Below are positions 14,901 to 35,502 of a stretch of 35,845 nt of DNA, one piece after another. The DNA lies in IMG/VR virus record IMGVR_UViG_2671180473_000015; one strand, given 5' to 3'. The notes below the pieces were generated by a model. It made no database searches. It worked only from the letters and a program-made list of their open reading frames with translations, and had not been told where the DNA came from. How positions within the stretch are numbered: the first letter of the stretch is position 1; every line of letters begins with the position of its first letter. Position numbers and translations under genes: made by a program. Source of the stretch: a virus (lineage: Duplodnaviria > Heunggongvirae > Uroviricota > Caudoviricetes).

Positions 14901-15140
14901 NNNNNNNNNNNNNNNNNNNNNNNNNNNNNNNNNNNNNNNNNNNNNNNNNNNNNNNNNNNNNNNNNNNNNNNNNNNNNNNNNNNNNNNNNNNNNNNNNNNN
15001 NNNNNNNNNNNNNNNNNNNNNNNNNNNNNNNNNNNNNNNNNNNNNNNNNNNNNNNNNNNNNNNNNNNNNNNNNNNNNNNNNNNNNNNNNNNNNNNNNNNN
15101 NNNNNNNNNNNNNNNNNNNNNNNNNNNNNNNNNNNNNNNN
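14901..15140. other. N-run (240 nt) - assembly gap or masked sequence
   Basis: Continuous n characters; removes the holin 3' end and the holin-endolysin junction. Confidence 0.95.
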
Positions 15141-19826: not shown

Positions 19827-21334
19827 TGGCAATTCTTGATGATGTGATTGGCGTTTTTTCACCAGGATGGAAAGCGGCAAGGCTGCGTTCCCGTGCGGTG
19901 ATCCAGGCTTATGAGGCCGTAAAAACGACGCGGACACACAAAGGCCGGCGGGAAAACCGAACTGCCGACCAGTTAAGCCAGTACGGGGCCGTGTCGTTAC
20001 GTGAGCAGGCCCGTTACCTTGATAACAACCACGATCTGGTTATTGGTGTATTTGACAAGCTGGAAGAACGGGTGGTGGGGAAAAACGGGATTATTGTCGA
20101 GCCACATCCGGTATTACGCAATGGGGCCATTGCCCGTGACCTGGCTGCGGAGATTCGCACCCGATGGAGTGAATGGTCTGTCAGCCCGGAAGTCACCGGG
20201 CAGTTTACCCGTCCGATGCTGGAACGTCTGATGCTGCGTACCTGGCTGCGCGATGGTGAGGTGTTTGCCCAGATGGTTTCCGGGCGCATAAACAGCCTGA
20301 CGCCTTCTGCCGGTGTTCATTTCTGGCTGGAGGCGCTCGAGCCGGACTTTATTCCCATGACCAGTGATGAGAGCAACAGGCTGAATCAGGGCGTGTTTGT
20401 TGATGACTGGGGGCGTCCCGAAAAATATCTGGTGTATAAAAGCCGTCCCGTATCCGGACGGCAGATGGAAACCAAAGAAGTGGATGCAGAGCGAATGCTG
20501 CATCTTAAATTTGTTCGCCGTCTGCACCAGATGCGCGGGACGTCTTTGTTGTCCGGTGTGCTGATCCGCCTCAGTGCCCTGAAAGATTATGAAGATTATG
20601 AGCTGACTGCAGCAAGGATCGCCGCTGCTCTGGGGATGTACATCCGCAAAGGCGACGGGCAGAGCTATGAACCGGATGGTAATGGCAGCAAGGATAAGGA
20701 ACGCGAGCTTACCATTCAGCCAGGCATTATTTACGACGATCTGAAACCCGGCGAAGAAATCGGAATGGTGAAGTCGGATCGCCCCAATCCTAACCTTGAA
20801 ACTTTTCGTAATGGTCAGTTGCGTGCCGTGGCGGCGGGCAGTCGTCTGAGTTTTTCCAGTACAGCGCGCAACTATAACGGCACTTACAGCGCCCAGCGTC
20901 AGGAGCTGGTTGAATCTACTGATGGCTACCTGATCCTGCAGGACTGGTTTATTGGTGCCGTCACCCGCCCGATGTATCGTGCATGGCTGAAACAGGCTGT
21001 GGCATCCGGTGTTATCAGGCTACCCCGCGATCTTGACCGTTCTTCACTGTATACCGCGGTGTATTCCGGACCGGTGATGCCGTGGATTGACCCTGTTAAG
21101 GAGGCTGAGGCCTGGAAAATCCAGATTCGTGGTGGAGCGGCGACAGAATCAGACTGGGTACGTGCAGGTGGTCGTAATCCGGATGATGTCAAACGTCGGC
21201 GCAAGGCCGAAATTGATGAAAACCGCAAGCTGGATCTGGTATTTGATACCGATCCGGCCAGTGATAAAGGAGGCAGCAGTGCCGCAACGAAACGACAGGA
21301 GCCGCAGCACACCGACGACCAGTCCGAAGAATAA
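19826..21334 (+). CDS. B: portal protein (lambda gpB-like)
   Basis: 502-aa product from the ATG at 19826, which overlaps the W-like stop (TGATG). Position and size fit a portal. The track ORF 19754..21334 is an upstream extension. Confidence 0.85.
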   Translation: MAILDDVIGVFSPGWKAARLRSRAVIQAYEAVKTTRTHKGRRENRTADQLSQYGAVSLREQARYLDNNHDLVIGVFDKLEERVVGKNGIIVEPHPVLRNGAIARDLAAEIRTRWSEWSVSPEVTGQFTRPMLERLMLRTWLRDGEVFAQMVSGRINSLTPSAGVHFWLEALEPDFIPMTSDESNRLNQGVFVDDWGRPEKYLVYKSRPVSGRQMETKEVDAERMLHLKFVRRLHQMRGTSLLSGVLIRLSALKDYEDYELTAARIAAALGMYIRKGDGQSYEPDGNGSKDKERELTIQPGIIYDDLKPGEEIGMVKSDRPNPNLETFRNGQLRAVAAGSRLSFSSTARNYNGTYSAQRQELVESTDGYLILQDWFIGAVTRPMYRAWLKQAVASGVIRLPRDLDRSSLYTAVYSGPVMPWIDPVKEAEAWKIQIRGGAATESDWVRAGGRNPDDVKRRRKAEIDENRKLDLVFDTDPASDKGGSSAATKRQEPQHTDDQSEE

Positions 21335-21347
21335 TTCCTGGTTCAGG

Positions 21348-23306
21348 ATGCAGGCTGGTCACCAGAGTGACGCGGATATTTATATTTATGACGAGATTGG
21401 TTTCTGGGGTGTTACAGCGAAGCAGTTTATCAGTGATCTGAATGCACTGGGCGATATCACCCACATTAATCTCCATATTAATTCACCGGGTGGCGATGTC
21501 TTTGAAGGCATCGCCATTTTTAATGCGCTGAAAACACATGGTGCGTCCATTACCGTTTATGTCGACGGTGTGGCGGCGTCAATGGCGTCGGTCATTGCGA
21601 TGGTGGGAAACCCGGTCATTATGCCGGAAAACACCTTCATGATGATTCATAAACCATTTGGCTTTACGGGCGGTGATGCGGAGGACATGCGCACCTATGC
21701 CGACCTGCTCGATAAGGTTGAGGCGGTTCTGTTACCCGCTTATGCACAGAAAACCGGGAAAACCACCGATGAAATTGCTGCCATGCTGGCGGATGAGACC
21801 TGGATGTCCGGTGCCGAATGTCTGGCACAGGGATTTGCTGATCAGGTGACGCCAGCCGTTAAGGCAATGGCATGTATTCAGTCAAAACGTACAGAGGAAT
21901 TTAAAAAGATGCCGGAATCCATTCGAAACATGATTACTCCGCCACGCAACAGTGCTCCACGCGTACAGGATGATGAACCTGCAGCCTCCCGGACGCCAGT
22001 GCAGGCAGCAGCACCCGTGGTGGATGAAAACAGTATCCGTGCGCAGGTACTGGCAGAGCAAAAAGCGCGTGTAAACGGTATTAATGATCTGTTTGCCATG
22101 TTTGGCGGGCGTTATCAGACGCTGCAGGCTCAGTGTCTTGCCGATCCTGAATGTTCGCTGGAGCAGGCCCGCGAAAAGCTGTTGAACGAGATGGGGCGCG
22201 AGTCCACGCCATCCAATAAAAATACCCCGGCTCATATTTATGCCGGAAACGGTAATTTTGTGGGGGACGGGATCCGCCAGGCGCTGATGGCGCGTGCCGG
22301 ATTTGAAAAAACCGAACGTGATAATGTCTACAACGGGATGACCCTGCGTGAATATGCCCGTATGTCACTGACTGAACGGGGTATTGGGGTTTCCAGTTAT
22401 AACCCGATGCAGATGGTCGGTGCGGCGTTCACACACAGTACGTCTGACTTCGGTAATATTCTGCTGGATGTTGCGAACAAAGCCATTCTGCAGGGCTGGG
22501 AAGATGCCCCTGAAACCTATGAACAGTGGACGCGGAAAGGTCAGTTGTCTGATTTTAAAATTGCCCATCGTGTGGGTATGGGGGGCTTCAGTGCTCTGCG
22601 TCAGGTGCGTGAAGGGGCGGAATATAAATACGTCACCACCGGAGATAAACAGGCCACTATTGCACTGGCGACCTATGGCGAGCTGTTCAGTATCACCCGT
22701 CAGGCCATTATCAATGATGATCTGAATATGCTGACCGATGTCCCGATGAAACTGGGCCGTGCGGCGAAATCCACTATTGCCGATCTGGTTTATGCCATTC
22801 TGACGTCTAACCCGAAAATCTCCACAGATAATGTAAGTCTGTTCGATAAAGCGAAACATGCAAACGTACTGGATAGCGCTGCAATGGACGTGGCATCGCT
22901 GGATAAAGCCCGCCAGTTGATGCGCGTTCAGAAAGAGGGGGAGCGTCATCTGAATATTCGTCCTGCGTTCGTACTGGTACCGACGGCGATGGAGTCTGTT
23001 GCTAACCAGGTCATTCGCTCCTCAAGTGTCAAGGGGGCCGACATTAACGCCGGTATTATTAACCCGGTGAAAGATTTTGCGACCGTTATTGCAGAGCCTC
23101 GTCTTGATGATAACAGCCAGACCACCTTCTACCTGGCTGCGTCAAAAGGCTCCGATACGATTGAAGTGGCTTATCTCAACGGTGTGGATACGCCATATAT
23201 TGATCAGATGGAGGGCTTCAGTGTGGATGGCGTGACAACGAAAGTGCGTATTGACGCCGGTGTCGCGCCAGTTGATCACCGCGGTCTGGTGAAATGTACG
23301 GCGTAA
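21348..23306 (+). CDS. prohead protease (ClpP/S14-like) fused to scaffold-like linker and HK97-fold major capsid protein
   Basis: 652-aa product from the ATG at 21348, 14 nt after the portal stop. N-terminal ClpP-like domain (DIYIYDEIGFWGV...INSPGGDVFEGIAIFNALKTHGASITVYVDGVAASMASVIAMVG), then an Ala/Gln-rich linker, then a capsid-like domain of about 380 aa. Confidence 0.75.
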   Translation: MQAGHQSDADIYIYDEIGFWGVTAKQFISDLNALGDITHINLHINSPGGDVFEGIAIFNALKTHGASITVYVDGVAASMASVIAMVGNPVIMPENTFMMIHKPFGFTGGDAEDMRTYADLLDKVEAVLLPAYAQKTGKTTDEIAAMLADETWMSGAECLAQGFADQVTPAVKAMACIQSKRTEEFKKMPESIRNMITPPRNSAPRVQDDEPAASRTPVQAAAPVVDENSIRAQVLAEQKARVNGINDLFAMFGGRYQTLQAQCLADPECSLEQAREKLLNEMGRESTPSNKNTPAHIYAGNGNFVGDGIRQALMARAGFEKTERDNVYNGMTLREYARMSLTERGIGVSSYNPMQMVGAAFTHSTSDFGNILLDVANKAILQGWEDAPETYEQWTRKGQLSDFKIAHRVGMGGFSALRQVREGAEYKYVTTGDKQATIALATYGELFSITRQAIINDDLNMLTDVPMKLGRAAKSTIADLVYAILTSNPKISTDNVSLFDKAKHANVLDSAAMDVASLDKARQLMRVQKEGERHLNIRPAFVLVPTAMESVANQVIRSSSVKGADINAGIINPVKDFATVIAEPRLDDNSQTTFYLAASKGSDTIEVAYLNGVDTPYIDQMEGFSVDGVTTKVRIDAGVAPVDHRGLVKCTA

Positions 23307-24982: not shown

Positions 24983-25726
24983 ATGACCACACCAAATCCA
25001 CTGGCAAAAACGAAAGGTGCGGGAACGACGTTCTGGATGTATACCGGCAAGGGCGATGCGTTTGCGAACCCTTTATCGGACACTGACTGGCTGCGTCTTG
25101 CGATGGTGAAGGATCTGCAACCTGGCGAAATGACCGCTGATGCAGAAGATGACACTTATCTCGATGATGAAGATGCAGACTGGAAAACGACAACCCAGGG
25201 GCAGAAATCCGTTGGTGATACTTCGGCGACGCTGGCCTGGCGTCCGGGTGACAGCGGGCAGAAAAAACTGGTTCAGTTGTTCGACTCCGGTGAAGTCTGC
25301 GCGTTTCGTATCAAATATCCCAACGGTACTGTTGATGTTTTCCGTGGCTGGCTGAGTTCACTGGGTAAAACCATTGCCTCAAAAGACGTGATGACCCGCA
25401 CAGTGAAAATCAGCGGTGTGGGGCGTCCGTATCTGGCAGAGGAAGGCACTGAAACAGTGAGCGTTACCGGGCTGACGGTGGCACCGGCATCTGCCAGTGT
25501 AAAAGTGGGAGCAACCACCACGCTGACCTTTACAGTAAAACCTGACGGAGCCAGTGACAAAGCGATCAGTGTGCATTCGACAGATCCACAGACTGCCACG
25601 GTGACCCTGAACGGGCTTGTGGCCACGGTGAAAGGCGTGAAGCAGGGCAGTGTCAGCATTGTGGGCATGACCGCTGACGGGAATTTTGTGGCAGTGGCTA
25701 CGGTGACTGTCAGCGCAGCAGGTTAA
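24983..25726 (+). CDS. V: major tail protein V with C-terminal Ig-like domain
   Basis: 247-aa product from the ATG at 24983 with SD AAGGAGGTGG. Close similarity to lambda V from memory (KGAGTT.W.Y.G.GD..ANPLSD.DW.RLA.VKDL.PGE.TA...DD.YLDDEDADW...GQGQKS.GDTS.TLAW.PG). Confidence 0.85.
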   Translation: MTTPNPLAKTKGAGTTFWMYTGKGDAFANPLSDTDWLRLAMVKDLQPGEMTADAEDDTYLDDEDADWKTTTQGQKSVGDTSATLAWRPGDSGQKKLVQLFDSGEVCAFRIKYPNGTVDVFRGWLSSLGKTIASKDVMTRTVKISGVGRPYLAEEGTETVSVTGLTVAPASASVKVGATTTLTFTVKPDGASDKAISVHSTDPQTATVTLNGLVATVKGVKQGSVSIVGMTADGNFVAVATVTVSAAG

Positions 25727-25746: not shown

Positions 25747-25770
25747 GCCCCGGTTATTCGGGGCTTTTTT
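25747..25770 (+). terminator. rho-independent terminator/attenuator after V
   Basis: Stem GCCCCG / CGGGGC with loop GTTATT, followed by TTTTTT. Confidence 0.55.
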
Positions 25771-25783
25771 ACAGGTGGAGAAC

Positions 25784-26173
25784 ATGATGTTTCTGAAACA
25801 GGACACGTTTAATTATGAAAAACAGTCCGTGGTGCTCAGTGAGCTGTCCGGGCTGCAGAGAATTGAATATCTGACGTTTGTTCAGCAGCGAACGGCAAAG
25901 TTTGATGCCGGGGAGGGAGAACTGCCGGAGGCTGAACGACAGATTGCTTTTCTGCGGATGGGGATGGATATCAATGCCTGGCTGGTTTCCCGCTCACTGT
26001 GGAATGCGGAACAGTCTCAGGATGTTGAGACGCTTTACGCATCCGTTATTACAACATGGTCGTATGATGCCCTGGGTGCGGGGGCGGAGATGGTTCTGTC
26101 GCTGAGCGGTATGGGGGCCATTGATAATGCCGGGGATTTGGAGCATGAGGGGCTGACGCCGGAAAAGTCCTGA
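25784..26173 (+). CDS. G: tail assembly chaperone G
   Basis: Start MMFLKQDTFNYEKQSVVLSELSGLQRIEYL matches lambda G (MFLKTESFEHNGVTVTLSELSALQRIEHL) from memory. Stop at 26171-26173. Confidence 0.8.
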   Translation: MMFLKQDTFNYEKQSVVLSELSGLQRIEYLTFVQQRTAKFDAGEGELPEAERQIAFLRMGMDINAWLVSRSLWNAEQSQDVETLYASVITTWSYDALGAGAEMVLSLSGMGAIDNAGDLEHEGLTPEKS

Positions 26174-26511
26174 CGCGGGAAATGCAGTTTGTCATGCGGC
26201 TTGCCCGGGAGTTCCGGCGGGCAGACTGGCGGCGGATGCTGTCGGAAATGTCGGCCACTGAGCTTGGTCAGTGGGGCGATTATTTCCGGATGCAGAGCTT
26301 CAGTGATGTGTGGATGGATGCGCAGTTTGCCTCGCTGAAGGCATTGATCGTGAGAATGGTGTCCGGCAGCAGTGATGCTGCGGTGGCTGATTTCAGCCTT
26401 TTACCGGAAGAGAACGGGATACCGGAGCGAACGGACGAAGAACTGATGCATCTTGGGGAAGGTATTTCCGGAGGTGTGCGTTATGGACCAGATAGCCAAC
26501 CTGGTCATTGA
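25784..26511 (+). CDS. T: tail assembly chaperone G-T fusion via predicted -1 programmed ribosomal frameshift
   Basis: The T frame is open from 26149 in the -1 frame relative to G and has no plausible independent start context. Candidate slip site G GAA AAG at 26161-26167 (lambda uses G GGA AAG). The T ORF ends at 26511, overlapping the tape-measure start. Confidence 0.55.
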
Positions 26512-29500
26512 TTTGGGGATTGATGCGGCAGAGTTTAAAAATGAAATTCCCCGTATCAAAAACCTTCTGAATGGTGCAGCCAGCGATGCAGAACGGTCTT
26601 CTGCCCGTATGCAGCGTTTTATGGAGCGTCAGACTCAGGCCGCCCGGCAGACAACGCAGGCGGCTTCTTCGGCTGCAACAGCCGCATCCGTCCATGCGCA
26701 GACGGTGGAGAAGAACGCACAGGCTCATGAACGCATGTCCCGCGAGGTGGAGAAAACCCGCCAGCGCATGGAGGCACTGAGCCAGAAAATGCGCGAGGAA
26801 CAGGCGCAGGCCATGGCTCTGGCGGAGGCTCAGGATAAAGCGGCTGCTGCGTTTTATCGTCAGATTGACAGTGTGAAACAGGCCAGTGCGGGGCTGCAGG
26901 AATTACAGCGTATTCAGCAGCAGATCCGACAGGCCAGAAACAGTGGCGGGATTGGTCAGCAGGATTATCTGGCGCTGATTTCTGAGGTTACGGCGAAAAC
27001 CCGTGTTCTTACACAGGCTGAGGAAGAGGCTACCCGACAGAAAGTGGCGTTTATCCGTCAGCTTAAAGAGCAGGCAACCCGCCAGAATCTTTCATCTTCT
27101 GAGTTGCTTCGTGCTAAGGCTGCCCAGCTGGGGGTAAGCAGTGCTGCAGAAGTGTATATCCGCAAAATGGAGCAGGCAGGAAAAGCCACGCATTCGCTGG
27201 GTCTGAAAAGTGCAGCAGCCCGCCAGGAGATAGGCGTTCTGATAGGTGAACTGGCCCGCGGCAATTTAGGGGCGCTGAGGGGGTCCGGAATAACGCTGGC
27301 TAACCGTGCCGGATGGATAGACACACTGATGTCACCGAAAGGCATGATGCTGGGCGGGGTTATTGGCGGTATTGCCGCGGCTGTCTATGGTCTGGGTAAA
27401 GCCTGGTATGACGGTCAGAAGGAGGGGGAAGAATTTAACCGCCAGTTGTCGCTGACGGGGCATTATGCCGGAGTCACTGCCGGGCAGCTGTGGACGCTCA
27501 GTCGTGCTATTTCCGGGAATGGTATTACGCAACATGCTGCAGCCGGTGCGCTGGCTCAGGTGGTGGGGAGTGGTGCATTTCGTGGAAACGATATCGGTAT
27601 GGTGGCGAGAGCTGCCGCACAGATGGAGCGATCGGTTGGCCAGTCGGTCAGCGATACCATAAATCAGTTTAAGCGGCTGAAGGATGATCCTGTAAATGCC
27701 GCGAAGGCTCTGGACAATGAGCTGCATTTTCTTACTGCCACTCAGCTTGAGCAGATACGCGTCCTTGGGGAACAGGGGCGGTCCAGTGATGCGGCACGGA
27801 TAGCCATGTCTGCACTGGCAGAGGAAACCGGTCGGCGTACTGCGGATATTGATAATAACCTCAATGCGCTGGGCAGTACGCTGAAGTATCTGTCTGATTT
27901 ATGGAGTCGTTTCTGGGATGCGGCCATGAATATTGGTCGTGAAGACTCGCTGGATGAACAGATTTCCGCTTTACAGGAGAAAGTGTCGCGGGCGAAAAGA
28001 CTCCCCTGGACGGCATCATCTTCTCAGGTTGAGTACGATCAGCAGCGTCTTAACGAGCTTCAGGAGAAAAAACGCCAGAAGGATTTGCAGGATGCAAAAG
28101 AGCAGGCAGAGCGGAATTATCAGGAGCAACAGAAACGCCGTAATGCTGAAAATGCTGCACTGAACCGGATGAATGAAACGGAAGCAGCACGACATCAGCG
28201 TGAAATTGCGCGTATTAATTCCATGCAGTACGCCGATCAGGCTGTCAGGGATGCGGCGATACAACGTGAAAATGAACGTTACGAGAAAGCCCTGGCATCC
28301 GGTAAGAAAAAAACACGCGAACCCCGTAATGATGAGGCCACCCGGTTATTGCTGCAGTACAGTCAGCAACAGGCACAGGTGGAAGGACAGATTGCTGCTG
28401 CCAGACAGTCAGCAGGCATTGCCACGGAAAGGATGACAGAAGCGCATAAACAGCTTCTGGCTCTGCAGCAGCGCATCAGCGACCTGGACGGGAAAAAACT
28501 GACGGCAGATGAAAAGAGTGTGCTGGCCCGTAAAGATGAACTGATTCAGGCACTGACGCTGCTGGATGTAAAACAGCAGGAGCTTCAGAAACAGACGGCA
28601 CTCAACGAGCTGAAGAAAAAAACAATTCAGCTGACCAGTCAACTGGCTGAAGAAGAGCGCGCTCAGCGTCAGCAACATGACCTGGATATCGCCACGGTGG
28701 GTATGGGTGATCAGCAGCGGCAGCGATATCAGGTACAACTGAGTCTTCGCCAGAAATACCAGCAACAGCTGGAGCAGTTGAGGCGGGATAGTGAGCAGAA
28801 AGGAACATATAACACGGATGACTACAGAAAGGCCGAGCAGGCGCTGACGGAGAGCCTGAACCGACAACTGAATGAGAATCGCCGTTACTGGCAACAGCTT
28901 GAAGTTGTGCAGGGTAACTGGAAAAACGGAGTCCTGCGTGCATTTCAGGATTTTACCGTGGATGCAGATAATACGGCAGGAACAGCAGAACAGGTGTTCT
29001 CGTCAGCCTTCAGCAACATGGGAAATGGCCTGGCAACTTTTGTCACTACCGGCAAACTCAATTTCAAATCCTTCACCTCTTCTGTGCTGTCAGATATGGC
29101 GAAAATCCTGGCGCAGGCAACCATGATGAAATCGATAAAAGGGATTGGCAGTGTACTGGGATTTGATCTCAGCAGCCTTTCCCTGAATGCCAATGGGGGG
29201 ATTTATCAGTCTGCTGATTTGAGTCGTTACAGTGGCACGGTGGTTAACCGTCCGACGTTTTTTGCTTTTGCAAAAGGCGCGGGTGTGATGGGGGAAGCGG
29301 GACCTGAAGCCATTCTGCCACTGCGTCGTGGTGCTGACGGTAAGCTGGGGGTTGTGGCGGATATTGGTGGTTCAGGTATGGCGATGTTTGCCCCGCAGTA
29401 CAACATCGAGATCAATAACGATGGCACGAACGGGCAGATAGGTCCGGCTGCCCTGAAGGTGGTTTATGACCTTGGGAAAAAAGCGGCAGCGGACTTTATG

Positions 29501-29548
29501 CAACAGCAGGCCCGTGATGGTGGTCGGTTAAGTGGAGCATATCGGTAA
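26483..29548 (+). CDS. H: tail tape measure protein (lambda gpH-like)
   Basis: About 1021 aa from the ATG at 26483 (SD GGAGGTG). Long coiled-coil, Ala/Gln/Arg-rich sequence and size typical of siphovirus tape measure proteins. Confidence 0.9.
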   Translation: MDQIANLVIDLGIDAAEFKNEIPRIKNLLNGAASDAERSSARMQRFMERQTQAARQTTQAASSAATAASVHAQTVEKNAQAHERMSREVEKTRQRMEALSQKMREEQAQAMALAEAQDKAAAAFYRQIDSVKQASAGLQELQRIQQQIRQARNSGGIGQQDYLALISEVTAKTRVLTQAEEEATRQKVAFIRQLKEQATRQNLSSSELLRAKAAQLGVSSAAEVYIRKMEQAGKATHSLGLKSAAARQEIGVLIGELARGNLGALRGSGITLANRAGWIDTLMSPKGMMLGGVIGGIAAAVYGLGKAWYDGQKEGEEFNRQLSLTGHYAGVTAGQLWTLSRAISGNGITQHAAAGALAQVVGSGAFRGNDIGMVARAAAQMERSVGQSVSDTINQFKRLKDDPVNAAKALDNELHFLTATQLEQIRVLGEQGRSSDAARIAMSALAEETGRRTADIDNNLNALGSTLKYLSDLWSRFWDAAMNIGREDSLDEQISALQEKVSRAKRLPWTASSSQVEYDQQRLNELQEKKRQKDLQDAKEQAERNYQEQQKRRNAENAALNRMNETEAARHQREIARINSMQYADQAVRDAAIQRENERYEKALASGKKKTREPRNDEATRLLLQYSQQQAQVEGQIAAARQSAGIATERMTEAHKQLLALQQRISDLDGKKLTADEKSVLARKDELIQALTLLDVKQQELQKQTALNELKKKTIQLTSQLAEEERAQRQQHDLDIATVGMGDQQRQRYQVQLSLRQKYQQQLEQLRRDSEQKGTYNTDDYRKAEQALTESLNRQLNENRRYWQQLEVVQGNWKNGVLRAFQDFTVDADNTAGTAEQVFSSAFSNMGNGLATFVTTGKLNFKSFTSSVLSDMAKILAQATMMKSIKGIGSVLGFDLSSLSLNANGGIYQSADLSRYSGTVVNRPTFFAFAKGAGVMGEAGPEAILPLRRGADGKLGVVADIGGSGMAMFAPQYNIEINNDGTNGQIGPAALKVVYDLGKKAAADFMQQQARDGGRLSGAYR

Positions 29549-29886: not shown

Positions 29887-30545
29887 ATGCAGGATATTCC
29901 ACAGGAAACACATCATGAGACGACACGCCTCACTCAGTCAGCCCAGGTGGTGCTCTGGGAAATCGATCTGACAGAGGTCGGTGGAGAACGTTATTTTTTC
30001 TGTAATGAGCAGAACGAAAAAGGTGAGCCGGTCACCTGGCAGGGGCGACAGTATCAGGCGTATCCCATTCAGGGGACGGGATTTGAACTGAACGGCAAGG
30101 GCAGTGCTGCCCGTCCGNGGCGGAAGATCTGCAGAGTCTGGTCGGCGGAACGGTGGTCCGGCGTAAGGTTTACGCCCGTTTTCTGGATGCGGTGAACTTC
30201 GTCAACGGAAACAGTGACGCCGATCCGGAGCAGGAGGTGATCAGCCGCTGGCGCATCGAGCAGTGCAGCGAACTGAGCGCGGTGAGTGCCTCTTTTGTAC
30301 TGTCCACGCCGACGGAAACGGACGGTGCCGTTTTTCCGGGGCGCATCATGCTTGCTAATACCTGCACCTGGACCTATCGCGGCGATGAGTGCGGTTATCA
30401 CGGTCCGGCGGTCGCGGATGAATATGATCAGCCGACGTCCGATATCACGAAGGATAAATGCAGCAAATGCCTGAGCGGCTGTAAGTTTCGCAATAACGTC
30501 GGCAACTTTGGCGGCTTCCTTTCCATTAACAAACTTTCGCAGTAA
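29887..30545 (+). CDS. L: minor tail protein L, reading frame broken at a single N (likely collapsed assembly gap)
   Basis: N-terminal part (track ORF 29887..30195) and C-terminal part (30153..30545) both match lambda L almost residue-for-residue from memory. About 14 codons expected between ...GKGSAARP and AEDLQSLVGG are missing exactly at the n at 30118. Confidence 0.75.
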
Positions 30546-31294: not shown

Positions 31295-31896
31295 AAACGG
31301 GGTCCGAAGCCATCCGGGCGCTGGCCATGCAGATCCCGGCGTTTCGTCAGAAACTGAATGAGGGCTGGTATCAGGTGCGCATTGCCGGGCGTGATGCAGG
31401 CGAAAATGAATTATCTGCCCGTCTTAATGAGCCGCTGGCAAATGGTGCCGTGATCCACATCGTGCCGCGTCTGGCGGGAGCTAAAAGTGGCGGTGTGTTT
31501 CAGGTGGTGCTTGGGGCGGCGCTGATTGCGGTGGCATGGTGGAACCCTGTGGGCTGGCTGGGGNNNNNNNNNNNNNNNNNNNNNNNNNNNNNNNNNNNNN
31601 NNNNNNNNNNNNNNNNNNNNNNNNNNNNNNNNNNNNNNNNNNNNNNNNNNNNNNNNNNNNNNNNNNNNNNNNNNNNNNNNNNNNNNNNNNNNNNNNNNNN
31701 NNNNNNNNNNNNNNNNNNNNNNNNNNNNNNNNNNNNNNNNNNNNNNNNNNNNNNNNNNNNNNNNNNNNNNNNNNNNNNNNNNNNNNNNNNNNNNNNNNNN
31801 NNNNNNNNNNNNNNNNNNNNNNNNNNNNNNNNNNNNNNNNNNNTCAGCACGGCAGACGAAGGGGATGGTGGTCAGGTTGTGGTGATTGGTCGCTGA
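31192..31896 (+). CDS. I: tail assembly protein I (interrupted by an N-run)
   Basis: Starts MAATHTLPLASPGMARICLYGDLQRFGRRIDLRV as in lambda I. Overlaps the 3' end of K in another frame, as in lambda. The middle is lost in the N-run 31564-31843. Ends ...STADEGDGGQVVVIGR. Confidence 0.75.
   Translation: MAATHTLPLASPGMARICLYGDLQRFGRRIDLRVKTGSEAIRALAMQIPAFRQKLNEGWYQVRIAGRDAGENELSARLNEPLANGAVIHIVPRLAGAKSGGVFQVVLGAALIAVAWWNPVGWLGXXXXXXXXXXXXXXXXXXXXXXXXXXXXXXXXXXXXXXXXXXXXXXXXXXXXXXXXXXXXXXXXXXXXXXXXXXXXXXXXXXXXXXXXXXXXXXSTADEGDGGQVVVIGR
31564..31843. other. N-run (280 nt) - assembly gap or masked sequence
   Basis: Continuous n characters inside gene I. Confidence 0.95.

Positions 31897-31956: not shown

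Positions 31957-35502
<3,546 letters not shown>

What the first reader, a model, noticed from the sequence alone, without database searches (positions are those of the whole stretch)
26149..26173. G-T programmed -1 frameshift with a non-canonical slippery site
The T reading frame is open only from 26149 and is -1 relative to G, which stops at 26173, as required for the conserved G-T chaperone fusion. The only plausible slip site in the overlap is G GAA AAG (26161-26167), which differs from the lambda G GGA AAG heptamer at one position. That difference could alter the G to G-T ratio.
Basis: partly seen in the sequence, partly recalled or inferred. Interest (0 to 1): 0.4.

Follow-up and report, generated by a model that had tools for sequence, protein, structure and literature searches.

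The report
Phage tail chaperone G-T frameshift site
This is the ordinary lambda-type frameshift that lets a phage make two tail-assembly proteins (G and G-T) from overlapping genes; its slip sequence GGAAAAG breaks the textbook rule but is the commonest form in this gene family.

Summary
G (25787-26173) ends ...CCG GAA AAG TCC TGA. The T frame is -1 and is open only from 26149, because a TGA sits at 26146-48. The only in-frame A_AAG site in the 25-nt overlap is G_GAA_AAG at 26161-67. Pfam identifies G, T, V and H in lambda order. The window is an mEp460/cdtI-type E. coli prophage, found at over 95% identity in 1847 of 5426 complete E. coli genomes.

The heptamer is not a one-off mutation of lambda's G_GGA_AAG. 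It sits at the homologous position in 32 of 42 dereplicated loci from many Enterobacterales. It is conserved while the G tail just upstream is hypervariable. The T-frame protein aligns without gaps from the heptamer onward.

Of 71 family representatives from an exhaustive search, 48 end in ...EK and only 4 in lambda-like ...GK. One GenBank record (phage LLS) already annotates GGAAAAG as the -1 frameshift site. Published in vivo data give about 20% shifting for A_GAA_AAG against 57% for G_GGA_AAG in the dnaX context.

I found no stimulator next to the site. No experiment exists for this heptamer in its native context. Verdict: a real, ordinary G-T frameshift using a recognised variant heptamer; low to moderate interest.

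The parts
25787..26173 (+). Gene G, the tail assembly chaperone (128 aa). An alternative ATG lies at 25784.
   Evidence: Pfam PF06894 Phage_TAC_2, E=1e-40. 31% identical to lambda G. RefSeq annotates the identical sequence as gpG. GGAG lies 6 nt upstream of 25787.
26146..26148 (+). TGA in the -1 (T) frame, which closes that frame upstream and sets the 5' limit of any shift.
   Evidence: Direct reading. Conserved in all 80 close relatives.
26149..26173 (+). G/T overlap, the 25-nt stretch in which the shift must occur.
26161..26167 (+). Shift heptamer G_GAA_AAG. P-site codon GAA (Glu) and A-site codon AAG (Lys); after the -1 shift these read GGA and AAA.
   Evidence: Invariant in 80/80 close relatives. 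Present at the homologous site in 32 of 42 dereplicated loci. Annotated as the -1 frameshift site in phage LLS.
26167..26511 (+). T-frame part of G-T. The first -1 codon is GTC at 26167-69 and the stop is at 26509-11. The predicted G-T joins 25787..26167 to 26167..26511 and is 241 aa, with junction ...GLTPEK|VLTREMQF...
   Evidence: Pfam PF06223 Phage_tail_T, E=3e-14. 38% identical to lambda T. The -1 frame protein aligns without gaps from the heptamer in 28 dereplicated loci. Product sequence.
26182..26184 (+). ATG used by public annotation as an independent T start; probably not a real start.
   Evidence: annotate T from here. Anti-SD pairing is only -4.3 kcal/mol with no spacer, against -13.8 for V and -13.1 for H. 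The codon is CTG, CGT or CAT in other clades.
24983..25726 (+). Gene V, the major tail tube protein with a C-terminal Ig-like domain (context).
   Evidence: Pfam PF16461 E=1.5e-66 and PF02368.
26483..29548 (+). Gene H, the tape measure protein (context). Its start overlaps the end of T.
   Evidence: Pfam PF06791, PF09718 and PF24622. Strong GGAGGTG Shine-Dalgarno sequence.
26216..26256 (+). Local RNA hairpin region inside T, 50-90 nt downstream of the heptamer. Its link to the frameshift is unproven.
   Evidence: MFE structure. Sliding-window z about -2.4 in this clade at +40..+100, and a family mean of z -2.5 at +30..+80.

Best explanation
This is the lambda-type tail assembly chaperone pair. 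Most ribosomes translate G (25787-26173) and stop at TGA, giving the 128-aa chaperone.

A minority slip back one base on G_GAA_AAG (26161-67). This happens while tRNA-Glu holds GAA in the P site and tRNA-Lys holds AAG in the A site. tRNA-Lys re-pairs perfectly with AAA; this is the well-known A_AAG driver in E. coli. tRNA-Glu re-pairs with GGA, keeping two Watson-Crick pairs and one G.U pair in the middle position.

Translation then continues with GTC CTG ACG... to 26511. The result is a 241-aa G-T fusion with junction ...LTPEK-VLTREMQF.... By analogy with lambda, G and the G part of G-T coat the tape measure protein H, and the T part recruits the tube protein V.

Shown here: the frame geometry, the gene identities and order, conservation of the heptamer and of its fixed distance to the T motifs, and the lack of a conserved T start. 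Inferred: that the slip happens at this site, which tRNAs move, the product, and its level. The level is probably a few percent, possibly somewhat below lambda's.
For: - **Gene identity and order.** Pfam assigns G, T, V and H in lambda order. BLASTP to lambda G and T gives E=4e-16 and 9e-27.
- **Limits on the shift site.** The -1 frame is open only from 26149. In Edwardsiella the overlap is only 16 nt and still contains the homologous heptamer.
- **Close relatives.** CCGGAAAAGTC is invariant in 80/80 near relatives.
- **Census.** All 374 G loci carry an in-frame A_AAR site at the homologous spot. After dereplication, 42 loci give 32 GGAAAAG, 7 GGGAAAG, 1 AGAAAAG, 1 AAAAAAG and 1 GGAAAAA.
- **Synonymous constraint.** GAA is never GAG, and AAG is AAA only once. 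The preceding codon varies (GCG, CCG, CTG, GTG, also TTG; four amino acids) but ends in G in 33 of 34 loci. The next base is always T or C.
- **Contrast with the flank.** G homologues down to 56% identity end in PEK plus one residue, although the 20 residues before that are hypervariable.
- **Family level.** 48 of 71 representatives from an exhaustive HMMER search end in EK plus 0, 1 or 5 residues.
- **Fixed spacing to T.** The -1 frame protein aligns gap-free from the heptamer onward in 28 dereplicated loci.
- **Interchangeability.** GGGAAAG clades are scattered among GGAAAAG clades on the G-T tree, which implies the two heptamers can replace each other.
- **Published measurements.** In vivo in the dnaX context: A_GAA_AAG 20%, G_GGA_AAG 57%, A_AAA_AAG 81% (Tsuchihashi and Brown values in Bock 2019, Suppl. 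Table 3). A_AAG is the best tetramer in E. coli. G_GA-type first halves and NNA_AAG hexamers are recognised shift sites.
Against: - There is no experimental evidence for this heptamer in a G-T context.
- In a reconstituted E. coli system without stimulators, AUG GAA AAG gave mainly 0-frame product and was described as unfavourable for slippage.
- I found no stimulator next to the site. SD-like pairing upstream is not enriched across the family. The 60 nt after the heptamer are unstructured, with z about 0.
- This window has an ATG 9 nt after the G stop, so a separate T is not excluded by ORF structure alone.
- The nucleotide census used queries related to the window and so over-samples its relatives. 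The HMMER census is exhaustive, but it is a protein-level proxy built on a profile of the window's clade.
- Morganella has A_GAA_AAG, so the first G is not absolutely required.
Confidence: 0.85

Rival explanations
1. The site and product are the same, but only tRNA-Lys slips. This would be the NNA_AAG hexamer or A_AAG tetramer mechanism, as in IS1222, B. subtilis cdd and IS3. Re-pairing of the P-site tRNA-Glu would be irrelevant, and GAA would be kept by descent or for other reasons.
For: A_AAG alone is the most shift-prone tetramer in E. coli. NNA_AAG hexamers give low-level shifting, which is all that G-T needs. A_GAA_AAG, which has a first-position mismatch as well, still gives 20% in the dnaX context. 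Morganella uses A_GAA_AAG. Some family representatives end in AK, PK, VK, SK or TK, which implies other NNA codons can serve.
Against: Position 1 is G in 33 of 34 GAA-type dereplicated loci, across five different preceding codons. The P-site codon is almost only GAA or GGA, although the flanking tail is hypervariable. That pattern is unexpected if any NNA codon would do.
Confidence: 0.3
2. T is made on its own from ATG 26182, as public records annotate it. This could happen by re-initiation after termination at the G stop 9 nt upstream. No frameshift would be needed.
For: There is an in-frame ATG 9 nt after the G stop. RefSeq and several phage records annotate T this way. Some genes in the window, such as K, also lack an SD.
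Against: Anti-SD pairing is weak and has no spacer. The ATG is absent in most other clades, where the first possible start lies downstream of the conserved LAREFGRPDWR motif. The heptamer and its exact spacing to T are conserved. By established knowledge of lambda (Xu, Hendrix and Duda 2013/2014, as summarised), T must be tethered to G to link H and V.
Confidence: 0.05
3. The shift occurs elsewhere in the overlap, for example on G_GGG at 26149-26152.
For: G_GGG would allow cognate re-pairing of tRNA-Gly, and it lies just inside the open T frame.
Against: The GGG codon is GTG or GCG in all 80 close relatives. G_GGG is not shift-prone in E. coli; the apparent signal was attributed to SD-like initiation. 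In other clades the overlap is shorter and excludes this position.
Confidence: 0.03
4. RNA polymerase slips on the A run and produces a shifted mRNA.
For: The site contains four consecutive A residues.
Against: By established knowledge, productive transcriptional slippage needs runs of about 7 or more identical bases. Lambda's GGGAAAG has only three A's and is a proven ribosomal shift site.
Confidence: 0.01

Closest known systems
Phage lambda G / G-T programmed -1 frameshift at G_GGA_AAG (Levin, Hendrix and Casjens 1993; Xu, Hendrix and Duda 2004, 2013, 2014)
   Same: Homologous G and T domains. The same position between V and H. The same -1 geometry, with the heptamer at the homologous place near the G stop. 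The same A-site A_AAG. The same Lys-Val join.
   Different: The third base of the heptamer is A, not G, so the P-site codon is GAA (tRNA-Glu) rather than GGA (tRNA-Gly). The single G.U pair after the shift falls in the middle codon position instead of the wobble position. The G stop is 1 codon after the site, against 5 in lambda. Efficiency has not been measured.
Escherichia phage LLS (GenBank PQ299149.1) tail assembly chaperone, annotated '-1 programmed translational frameshift site GGAAAAG'
   Same: The same heptamer in the same register (GTG GAA AAG) at the homologous site of a homologous G/T pair. It is annotated as a joined CDS.
   Different: Its G is only about 35% identical. The stop is 5 codons after the site. 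It is an annotation, not an experiment.
NNA_AAG hexanucleotide and A_AAG tetranucleotide -1 shift sites in bacteria (IS1222 G_CGA_AAG, B. subtilis cdd A_CGA_AAG, IS3 C_CAA_AAG; Licznar 2003 as summarised in Atkins 2016)
   Same: tRNA-Lys slips from AAG to AAA. The upstream codon ends in A but cannot re-pair in the canonical way. Shifting is at a low level.
   Different: Those sites usually rely on a downstream pseudoknot or hairpin. None is found adjacent here.
G_GAN_NNN heptamers of eukaryotic RNA viruses (dianthoviruses, umbraviruses, insect-specific flaviviruses, mesoniviruses)
   Same: The first half of the heptamer is G_GA rather than X_XX, so the P-site tRNA re-pairs GAN to GGA with a second-position mismatch.
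   Different: These use eukaryotic ribosomes and a different second half (U_UUN or A_AAC). They have strong downstream RNA structures and an unrelated biological role.
E. coli dnaX A_AAA_AAG with an upstream SD-like element and a downstream stem-loop
   Same: The same A-site A_AAG and the same host tRNA-Lys. The mutant A_GAA_AAG was measured in this context at 20%.
   Different: No SD-like element is enriched in the G family, and there is no adjacent stem-loop. The shifted product here is longer rather than shorter.

Membership tests
Lambda-type tail assembly chaperone G/G-T with programmed -1 frameshift | The upstream ORF is a gpG-family chaperone. | tested here: met
   PF06894 E=1.2e-40. BLASTP to lambda G E=4e-16.
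Lambda-type tail assembly chaperone G/G-T with programmed -1 frameshift | The downstream ORF carries the T domain, is in the -1 frame and overlaps the end of G. | tested here: met
   PF06223 E=2.8e-14. Frames read directly. BLASTP to lambda T E=9e-27.
Lambda-type tail assembly chaperone G/G-T with programmed -1 frameshift | The pair lies between the major tail tube gene and the tape measure gene. | tested here: met
   V at 24983-25726 and H at 26483-29548, by Pfam and RefSeq annotation.
Lambda-type tail assembly chaperone G/G-T with programmed -1 frameshift | A shift-prone sequence lies inside the overlap and is conserved in position among relatives. | tested here: met
   An in-frame A_AAR site at the homologous spot in 374/374 loci, with a gap-free T frame from the site onward.
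Lambda-type tail assembly chaperone G/G-T with programmed -1 frameshift | T has no start or ribosome binding site of its own. | tested here: inconclusive
   This window has an ATG at 26182, but with poor SD pairing. That ATG is absent in most other clades. Independent initiation cannot be excluded from sequence alone.
Lambda-type tail assembly chaperone G/G-T with programmed -1 frameshift | The heptamer obeys the canonical X_XXY_YYZ rule. | tested here: not met
   G_GAA_AAG: the first three bases are GGA. This rule is not a defining feature of the family in practice, because most members lack it.
Lambda-type tail assembly chaperone G/G-T with programmed -1 frameshift | Two products, G and G-T, at roughly 30:1, both needed for tail assembly. 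| not testable with these tools
   Needs protein analysis or genetics. The lambda values come from the literature.
NNA_AAG / A_AAG single-tRNA -1 shift sites (IS3, IS1222, cdd type) | An in-frame A_AAG preceded by a codon ending in A. | tested here: met
   GAA AAG in the G frame.
NNA_AAG / A_AAG single-tRNA -1 shift sites (IS3, IS1222, cdd type) | A stimulatory hairpin or pseudoknot a few nucleotides downstream. | tested here: not met
   z = -0.8 and +0.3 for the window. The family mean is z about 0 for +3..+63 and for sliding windows from 0 to +70.
dnaX-type frameshift signal | An SD-like element 6-17 nt upstream of the heptamer. | tested here: inconclusive
   The window has GAGG 10 nt upstream, but it is conserved only among near-identical relatives. 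Across 28 dereplicated loci there is no positional enrichment of anti-SD pairing.

The most novel reading that the evidence does not exclude
G_GAA_AAG, not lambda's G_GGA_AAG, is the predominant and probably ancestral shift heptamer of the lambda-type G/G-T family. Selection maintains it, including its first G. That would imply true two-tRNA slippage, with tRNA-Glu tolerating a middle-position G.U pair. This is a sequence that in vitro work has used as a poorly slippery control. Its in vivo efficiency might be set by something not yet recognised. One candidate is the hairpin that recurs 30-90 nt downstream: it could pause a leading ribosome so that the next ribosome queues on the heptamer.
Probability: 0.2. 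Interest if true: 0.5.

Novelty: new member of a known kind. Interest (0 to 1): 0.25.

Why it matters
There are three practical consequences.

- **Annotation.** Public records for this very common E. coli prophage type annotate T as a free-standing gene starting at an incidental ATG, and they miss the G-T fusion. This includes RefSeq, mEp460, cdtI-like phages, Ayreon, Tritos and PhiR55_1. Frameshift finders restricted to X_XXY_YYZ will miss most members of lambda's own chaperone family.
- **A natural comparison.** The family offers a replicated comparison of G_GGA_AAG against G_GAA_AAG at one homologous site, and occasionally A_AAA_AAG. That could be used to test how much P-site re-pairing matters in vivo.
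- **Limits.** The biology itself (G and G-T chaperones for tail length and assembly) is textbook, and the heptamer variant has already been noted by at least one annotator. A specialist would not be surprised.

Tried and rejected
- **Upstream SD-like stimulator, as in dnaX.** The window has GAGG 10 nt upstream. However, the anti-SD pairing profile over 28 dereplicated loci shows no peak at 6-17 nt compared with other positions. Rejected as a family feature.
- **Adjacent downstream hairpin or pseudoknot.** Folding of 26168-26260 and 26130-26230 gives unremarkable z-scores. The family mean is z about 0 for the first 60 nt. Rejected. A structure further downstream (+30 to +90) does exist, but it is too far away to be a classical stimulator.
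- **Alternative shift at G_GGG 26149-52.** It is allele-specific, and G_GGG is not shift-prone.
- **Independent T start.** Weak SD pairing and a non-conserved ATG argue against it.
- **Natural fused G-T proteins P0033 and P0050.** These are internal deletion derivatives, not read-through of the site, so they say nothing about the junction.
- **Literature searches.** Searches for GGAAAAG together with frameshift or tail returned only primers and unrelated hits. Xu et al. 2004, which lists slip sequences for many phages, is not held in the library. I therefore could not check whether it already lists this heptamer.
- **Loci without a motif call.** The four loci L272 and L295-297 have indels inside G but still carry GGAAAAG at the expected place.

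Full report
**What is in the sequence**

The window around the finding reads, in the G frame...GAG GGG CTG ACG CCG GAA AAG TCC TGA, with the stop at 26171-26173. The frame one base back has TGA at 26146-26148 and then stays open to 26509-26511. G_GAA_AAG sits at 26161-26167 in the register needed for a -1 shift.

Pfam identifies four products in lambda gene order:
- the 128-aa product of 25787-26173 as the lambda gpG chaperone family (PF06894, E=1e-40);
- the -1 frame product as Phage_tail_T (PF06223, E=3e-14);
- the upstream gene as a lambda-type tail tube protein with an Ig-like domain;
- the downstream gene as a tape measure protein.

BLASTP to lambda G and T gives 31% and 38% identity. Lambda carries GCG GGA AAG at the corresponding place.

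**Where the window comes from**

The 901 bases around the site match 17 sequenced phages at 97.7-99.1% identity, including mEp460, cdtI, Ayreon and Tritos. They also match 1847 of 5426 complete E. coli genomes, nearly all at over 95% identity, and are 100% identical to strain A14. This is a very common lambdoid prophage type.

None of the records I opened joins G and T. They annotate T as a separate CDS from the ATG equivalent to 26182, or from an ATG further downstream in Ayreon.

**Is the heptamer more than chance?**

The bare heptamer is not rare: 8 copies in the window against 5.7 expected. The argument therefore rests on position and conservation.

- All 80 close relatives from IMG/VR keep CCGGAAAAGTC. 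The GGG codon at 26150-52 is GTG or GCG in them, which removes the only other repeat in the overlap as a conserved candidate. G_GGG is in any case not shift-prone in E. coli.
- G homologues down to 56% identity end in P-E-K plus one residue, although the preceding 20 residues are hypervariable.
- I collected 374 loci from five scans: relatives of the window, lambda, an Enterobacter type, a Proteus type, and a mixed profile. All of them have an in-frame A_AAR site at the homologous spot.
- After dereplication at 90% identity over 127 nt, 42 loci remain: 32 GGAAAAG, 7 GGGAAAG, and one each of AGAAAAG, AAAAAAG and GGAAAAA.
- Within the GAA class, Glu is never GAG and Lys is AAA only once. The preceding codon varies among GCG, CCG, CTG and GTG (TTG is also seen before dereplication) but ends in G in 33 of 34 loci. 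The next base is always a pyrimidine.
- The -1 frame protein aligns without a single gap from the heptamer onward in 28 dereplicated loci: K-[VA]-x-x-x-[EQ]-x-x-F-x-[LM]-x-[LF]-[AS]-[RH]-E.... The shift site is therefore fixed relative to T while the G tail before it drifts freely.
- In Edwardsiella the overlap is only 16 nt and still contains the homologous heptamer.

**Family-wide view**

I ran an exhaustive HMMER search of 1.84 billion cluster representatives with a profile of the window's clade. It found 128 proteins, 71 of them near full length. Of those 71, 48 end in E-K plus 0, 1 or 5 residues, 4 in G-K (lambda-like), 4 in A-K, 3 in P-K and 2 in K-K.

On a neighbour-joining tree of predicted G-T proteins, the GGGAAAG lineages fall in three separate places among GGAAAAG lineages. 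These are lambda plus Stx2a phages, a Serratia/Symbiopectobacterium group, and Edwardsiella.

The heptamer that looks non-canonical is therefore the norm in this family, and lambda's is the minority form. Two caveats apply. The nucleotide census is biased by the choice of queries. The protein census is a proxy, and the tree is only a quick distance tree.

**Named phages**

- Fels-1: CCG GAA AAG.
- mEp043: GCG GAA AAG.
- Providencia phage PSTCR8lys: CTG GAA AAG TAG.
- An Stx2 phage: TCA AAA AAG.
- Another Stx2a phage: GCG GGA AAG.
- Phage LLS (PQ299149.1): GTG GAA AAG. At least one annotator has therefore already recognised the variant.

**Mechanism**

The A-site half, A_AAG, is the most shift-prone tetramer in E. 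coli, because the single tRNA-Lys pairs better with AAA.

The P-site half is unusual. tRNA-Glu leaves GAA and must sit on GGA, which keeps two Watson-Crick pairs plus a G.U pair in the middle position. In lambda, tRNA-Gly moves from GGA to GGG, and the G.U pair falls at the wobble position. This base-pair accounting is my inference from the anticodons.

The literature bears on it in four ways:
- Peng et al. 2019 used AUG GAA AAG U as the 'less slippery' sequence, 'unfavorable for slippage' because of the second-position mismatch. They saw mainly 0-frame product in a purified system without stimulators.
- The in vivo dnaX-context data of Tsuchihashi and Brown, tabulated by Bock et al. 2019, give A_AAA_AAG 81%, G_GGA_AAG 57%, A_GAA_AAG 20%, A_ACA_AAG 22% and A_AGA_AAG 5%.
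- The Atkins 2016 review lists G_GA-type first halves in several eukaryotic virus groups. It also describes NNA_AAG hexamers as low-level shift sites.
- Lambda needs only about one G-T per 30 G.

A heptamer some two- to three-fold weaker than lambda's would therefore still be in a workable range. Whether the ratio here differs from lambda's is unknown.

The conservation of the first G, and of GAA or GGA as the P-site codon, favours two-tRNA slippage. The Morganella A_GAA_AAG, and the AK, PK, VK, SK and TK endings among family representatives, show that a single-tRNA mechanism cannot be dismissed.

**Stimulators**

I looked for the two classical kinds and found neither.
- Anti-SD pairing upstream shows no positional peak across 28 dereplicated loci. 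The window does have GAGG 10 nt upstream.
- The 60 nt after the heptamer are no more structured than shuffled controls, both in the window and across the family.

There is a clear local minimum of folding z-score further downstream: mean -2.5 at +30 to +80, and about -2.4 at +40 to +100 in the window's clade. It arises from GC-rich hairpins built from the codons of the conserved LAR and WR(A/R)M motifs. The 5' arm sits in different places in different clades. This is too far away to be a classical stimulator. A role through ribosome queuing is speculation.

**Independent T?**

The ATG at 26182 lies 9 nt after the G stop, so re-initiation is conceivable. Three points count against it:
- Its anti-SD pairing is -4.3 kcal/mol with no spacer, against -13.8 for V, -13.1 for H and -7.0 for G.
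- The codon is CTG, CGT or CAT in most other clades.
- In Enterobacter-type phages the first possible start lies downstream of the conserved LAREFGRPDWR motif. Annotated T proteins there are truncated.

I rate independent T at about 5%.

**Verdict**

The feature is a normal member of the lambda G/G-T frameshift family. It uses a heptamer that breaks the X_XXY_YYZ rule, but that heptamer is the family's commonest form and is already annotated as such in one GenBank record.

The predicted products are G (128 aa) and G-T (241 aa, junction ...GLTPEK-VLTREMQF...). Nothing here is experimental. The main practical point is that public annotation of this very common prophage type misses the fusion.

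Noticed in passing
window 25747-25770 (+): A terminator-like hairpin, GCCCCGGTTATTCGGGGC followed by TTTTTT, lies between the tube gene V and G. mEp460 and Ayreon annotate it as a rho-independent terminator. It could lower transcription of G, T and H relative to the abundant tube protein.
   Followed up: partly
window 26201-26261 (hairpin about 26216-26256); homologous +30..+90 region in L003, L093, L098, L103, L105 and others: A local RNA structure recurs 30-90 nt downstream of the shift site (family mean z -2.5; up to -6.5 for +3..+93 in Morganella). It is built from the codons of the conserved LAR and WR(A/R)M motifs. The 3' arm stays in the same place while the 5' arm differs between the Enterobacter and Proteus types. 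It may be a by-product of GC-rich palindromic codons (GGCGCGCC) or a selected element.
   Followed up: partly
window 26182-26511, and records NZ_CP028760.1, NC_019716.1, PV340571.1, OV696610.1, MF807953.1, NC_010391.1, NC_019706.1: Public annotation gives T as a free-standing CDS from whichever ATG comes first, and in some clades this truncates the conserved N-terminal T motifs. Only PQ299149.1 (phage LLS) joins G and T.
   Followed up: yes
proteins P0033 and P0050 (E. coli and a metagenome contig): These are natural in-frame G-T fusions created by internal deletions that remove the G tail and the shift site. An example junction is ...WSYDAGKVLTREMQF. A phage carrying one would make only G-T.
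   Followed up: partly
L361 and L364 (IMG/VR); L103 (Morganella); L303 (Stx2 phage): Rare heptamer variants occur at the homologous site: G_GAA_AAA followed directly by TAG, A_GAA_AAG followed by TAA, and A_AAA_AAG. In the Proteus, Providencia and Morganella types the stop codon follows the AAG immediately.
   Followed up: partly
all 42 dereplicated loci; window 26168: The base after the heptamer is always a pyrimidine (21 T, 21 C), so the first T-frame residue after Lys is always Val or Ala. I could not separate a 3'-context effect on shifting from a protein constraint.
   Followed up: no
window 14901-15140, 30118, 31564-31843, 32455-32681, 34451-34666: The window contains runs of N and a single N at 30118, inside the lambda-L-like gene at 29887-30195. 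The single N gives an X in the translation and appears to break that ORF.
   Followed up: no
window 21087-23306 (+): A long ORF of 739 aa as listed. It appears to combine a ClpP/S49-like prohead protease region with a major capsid protein region, upstream of the tail genes. I recognised this by eye only. The listed TTG start is probably too far upstream.
   Followed up: no
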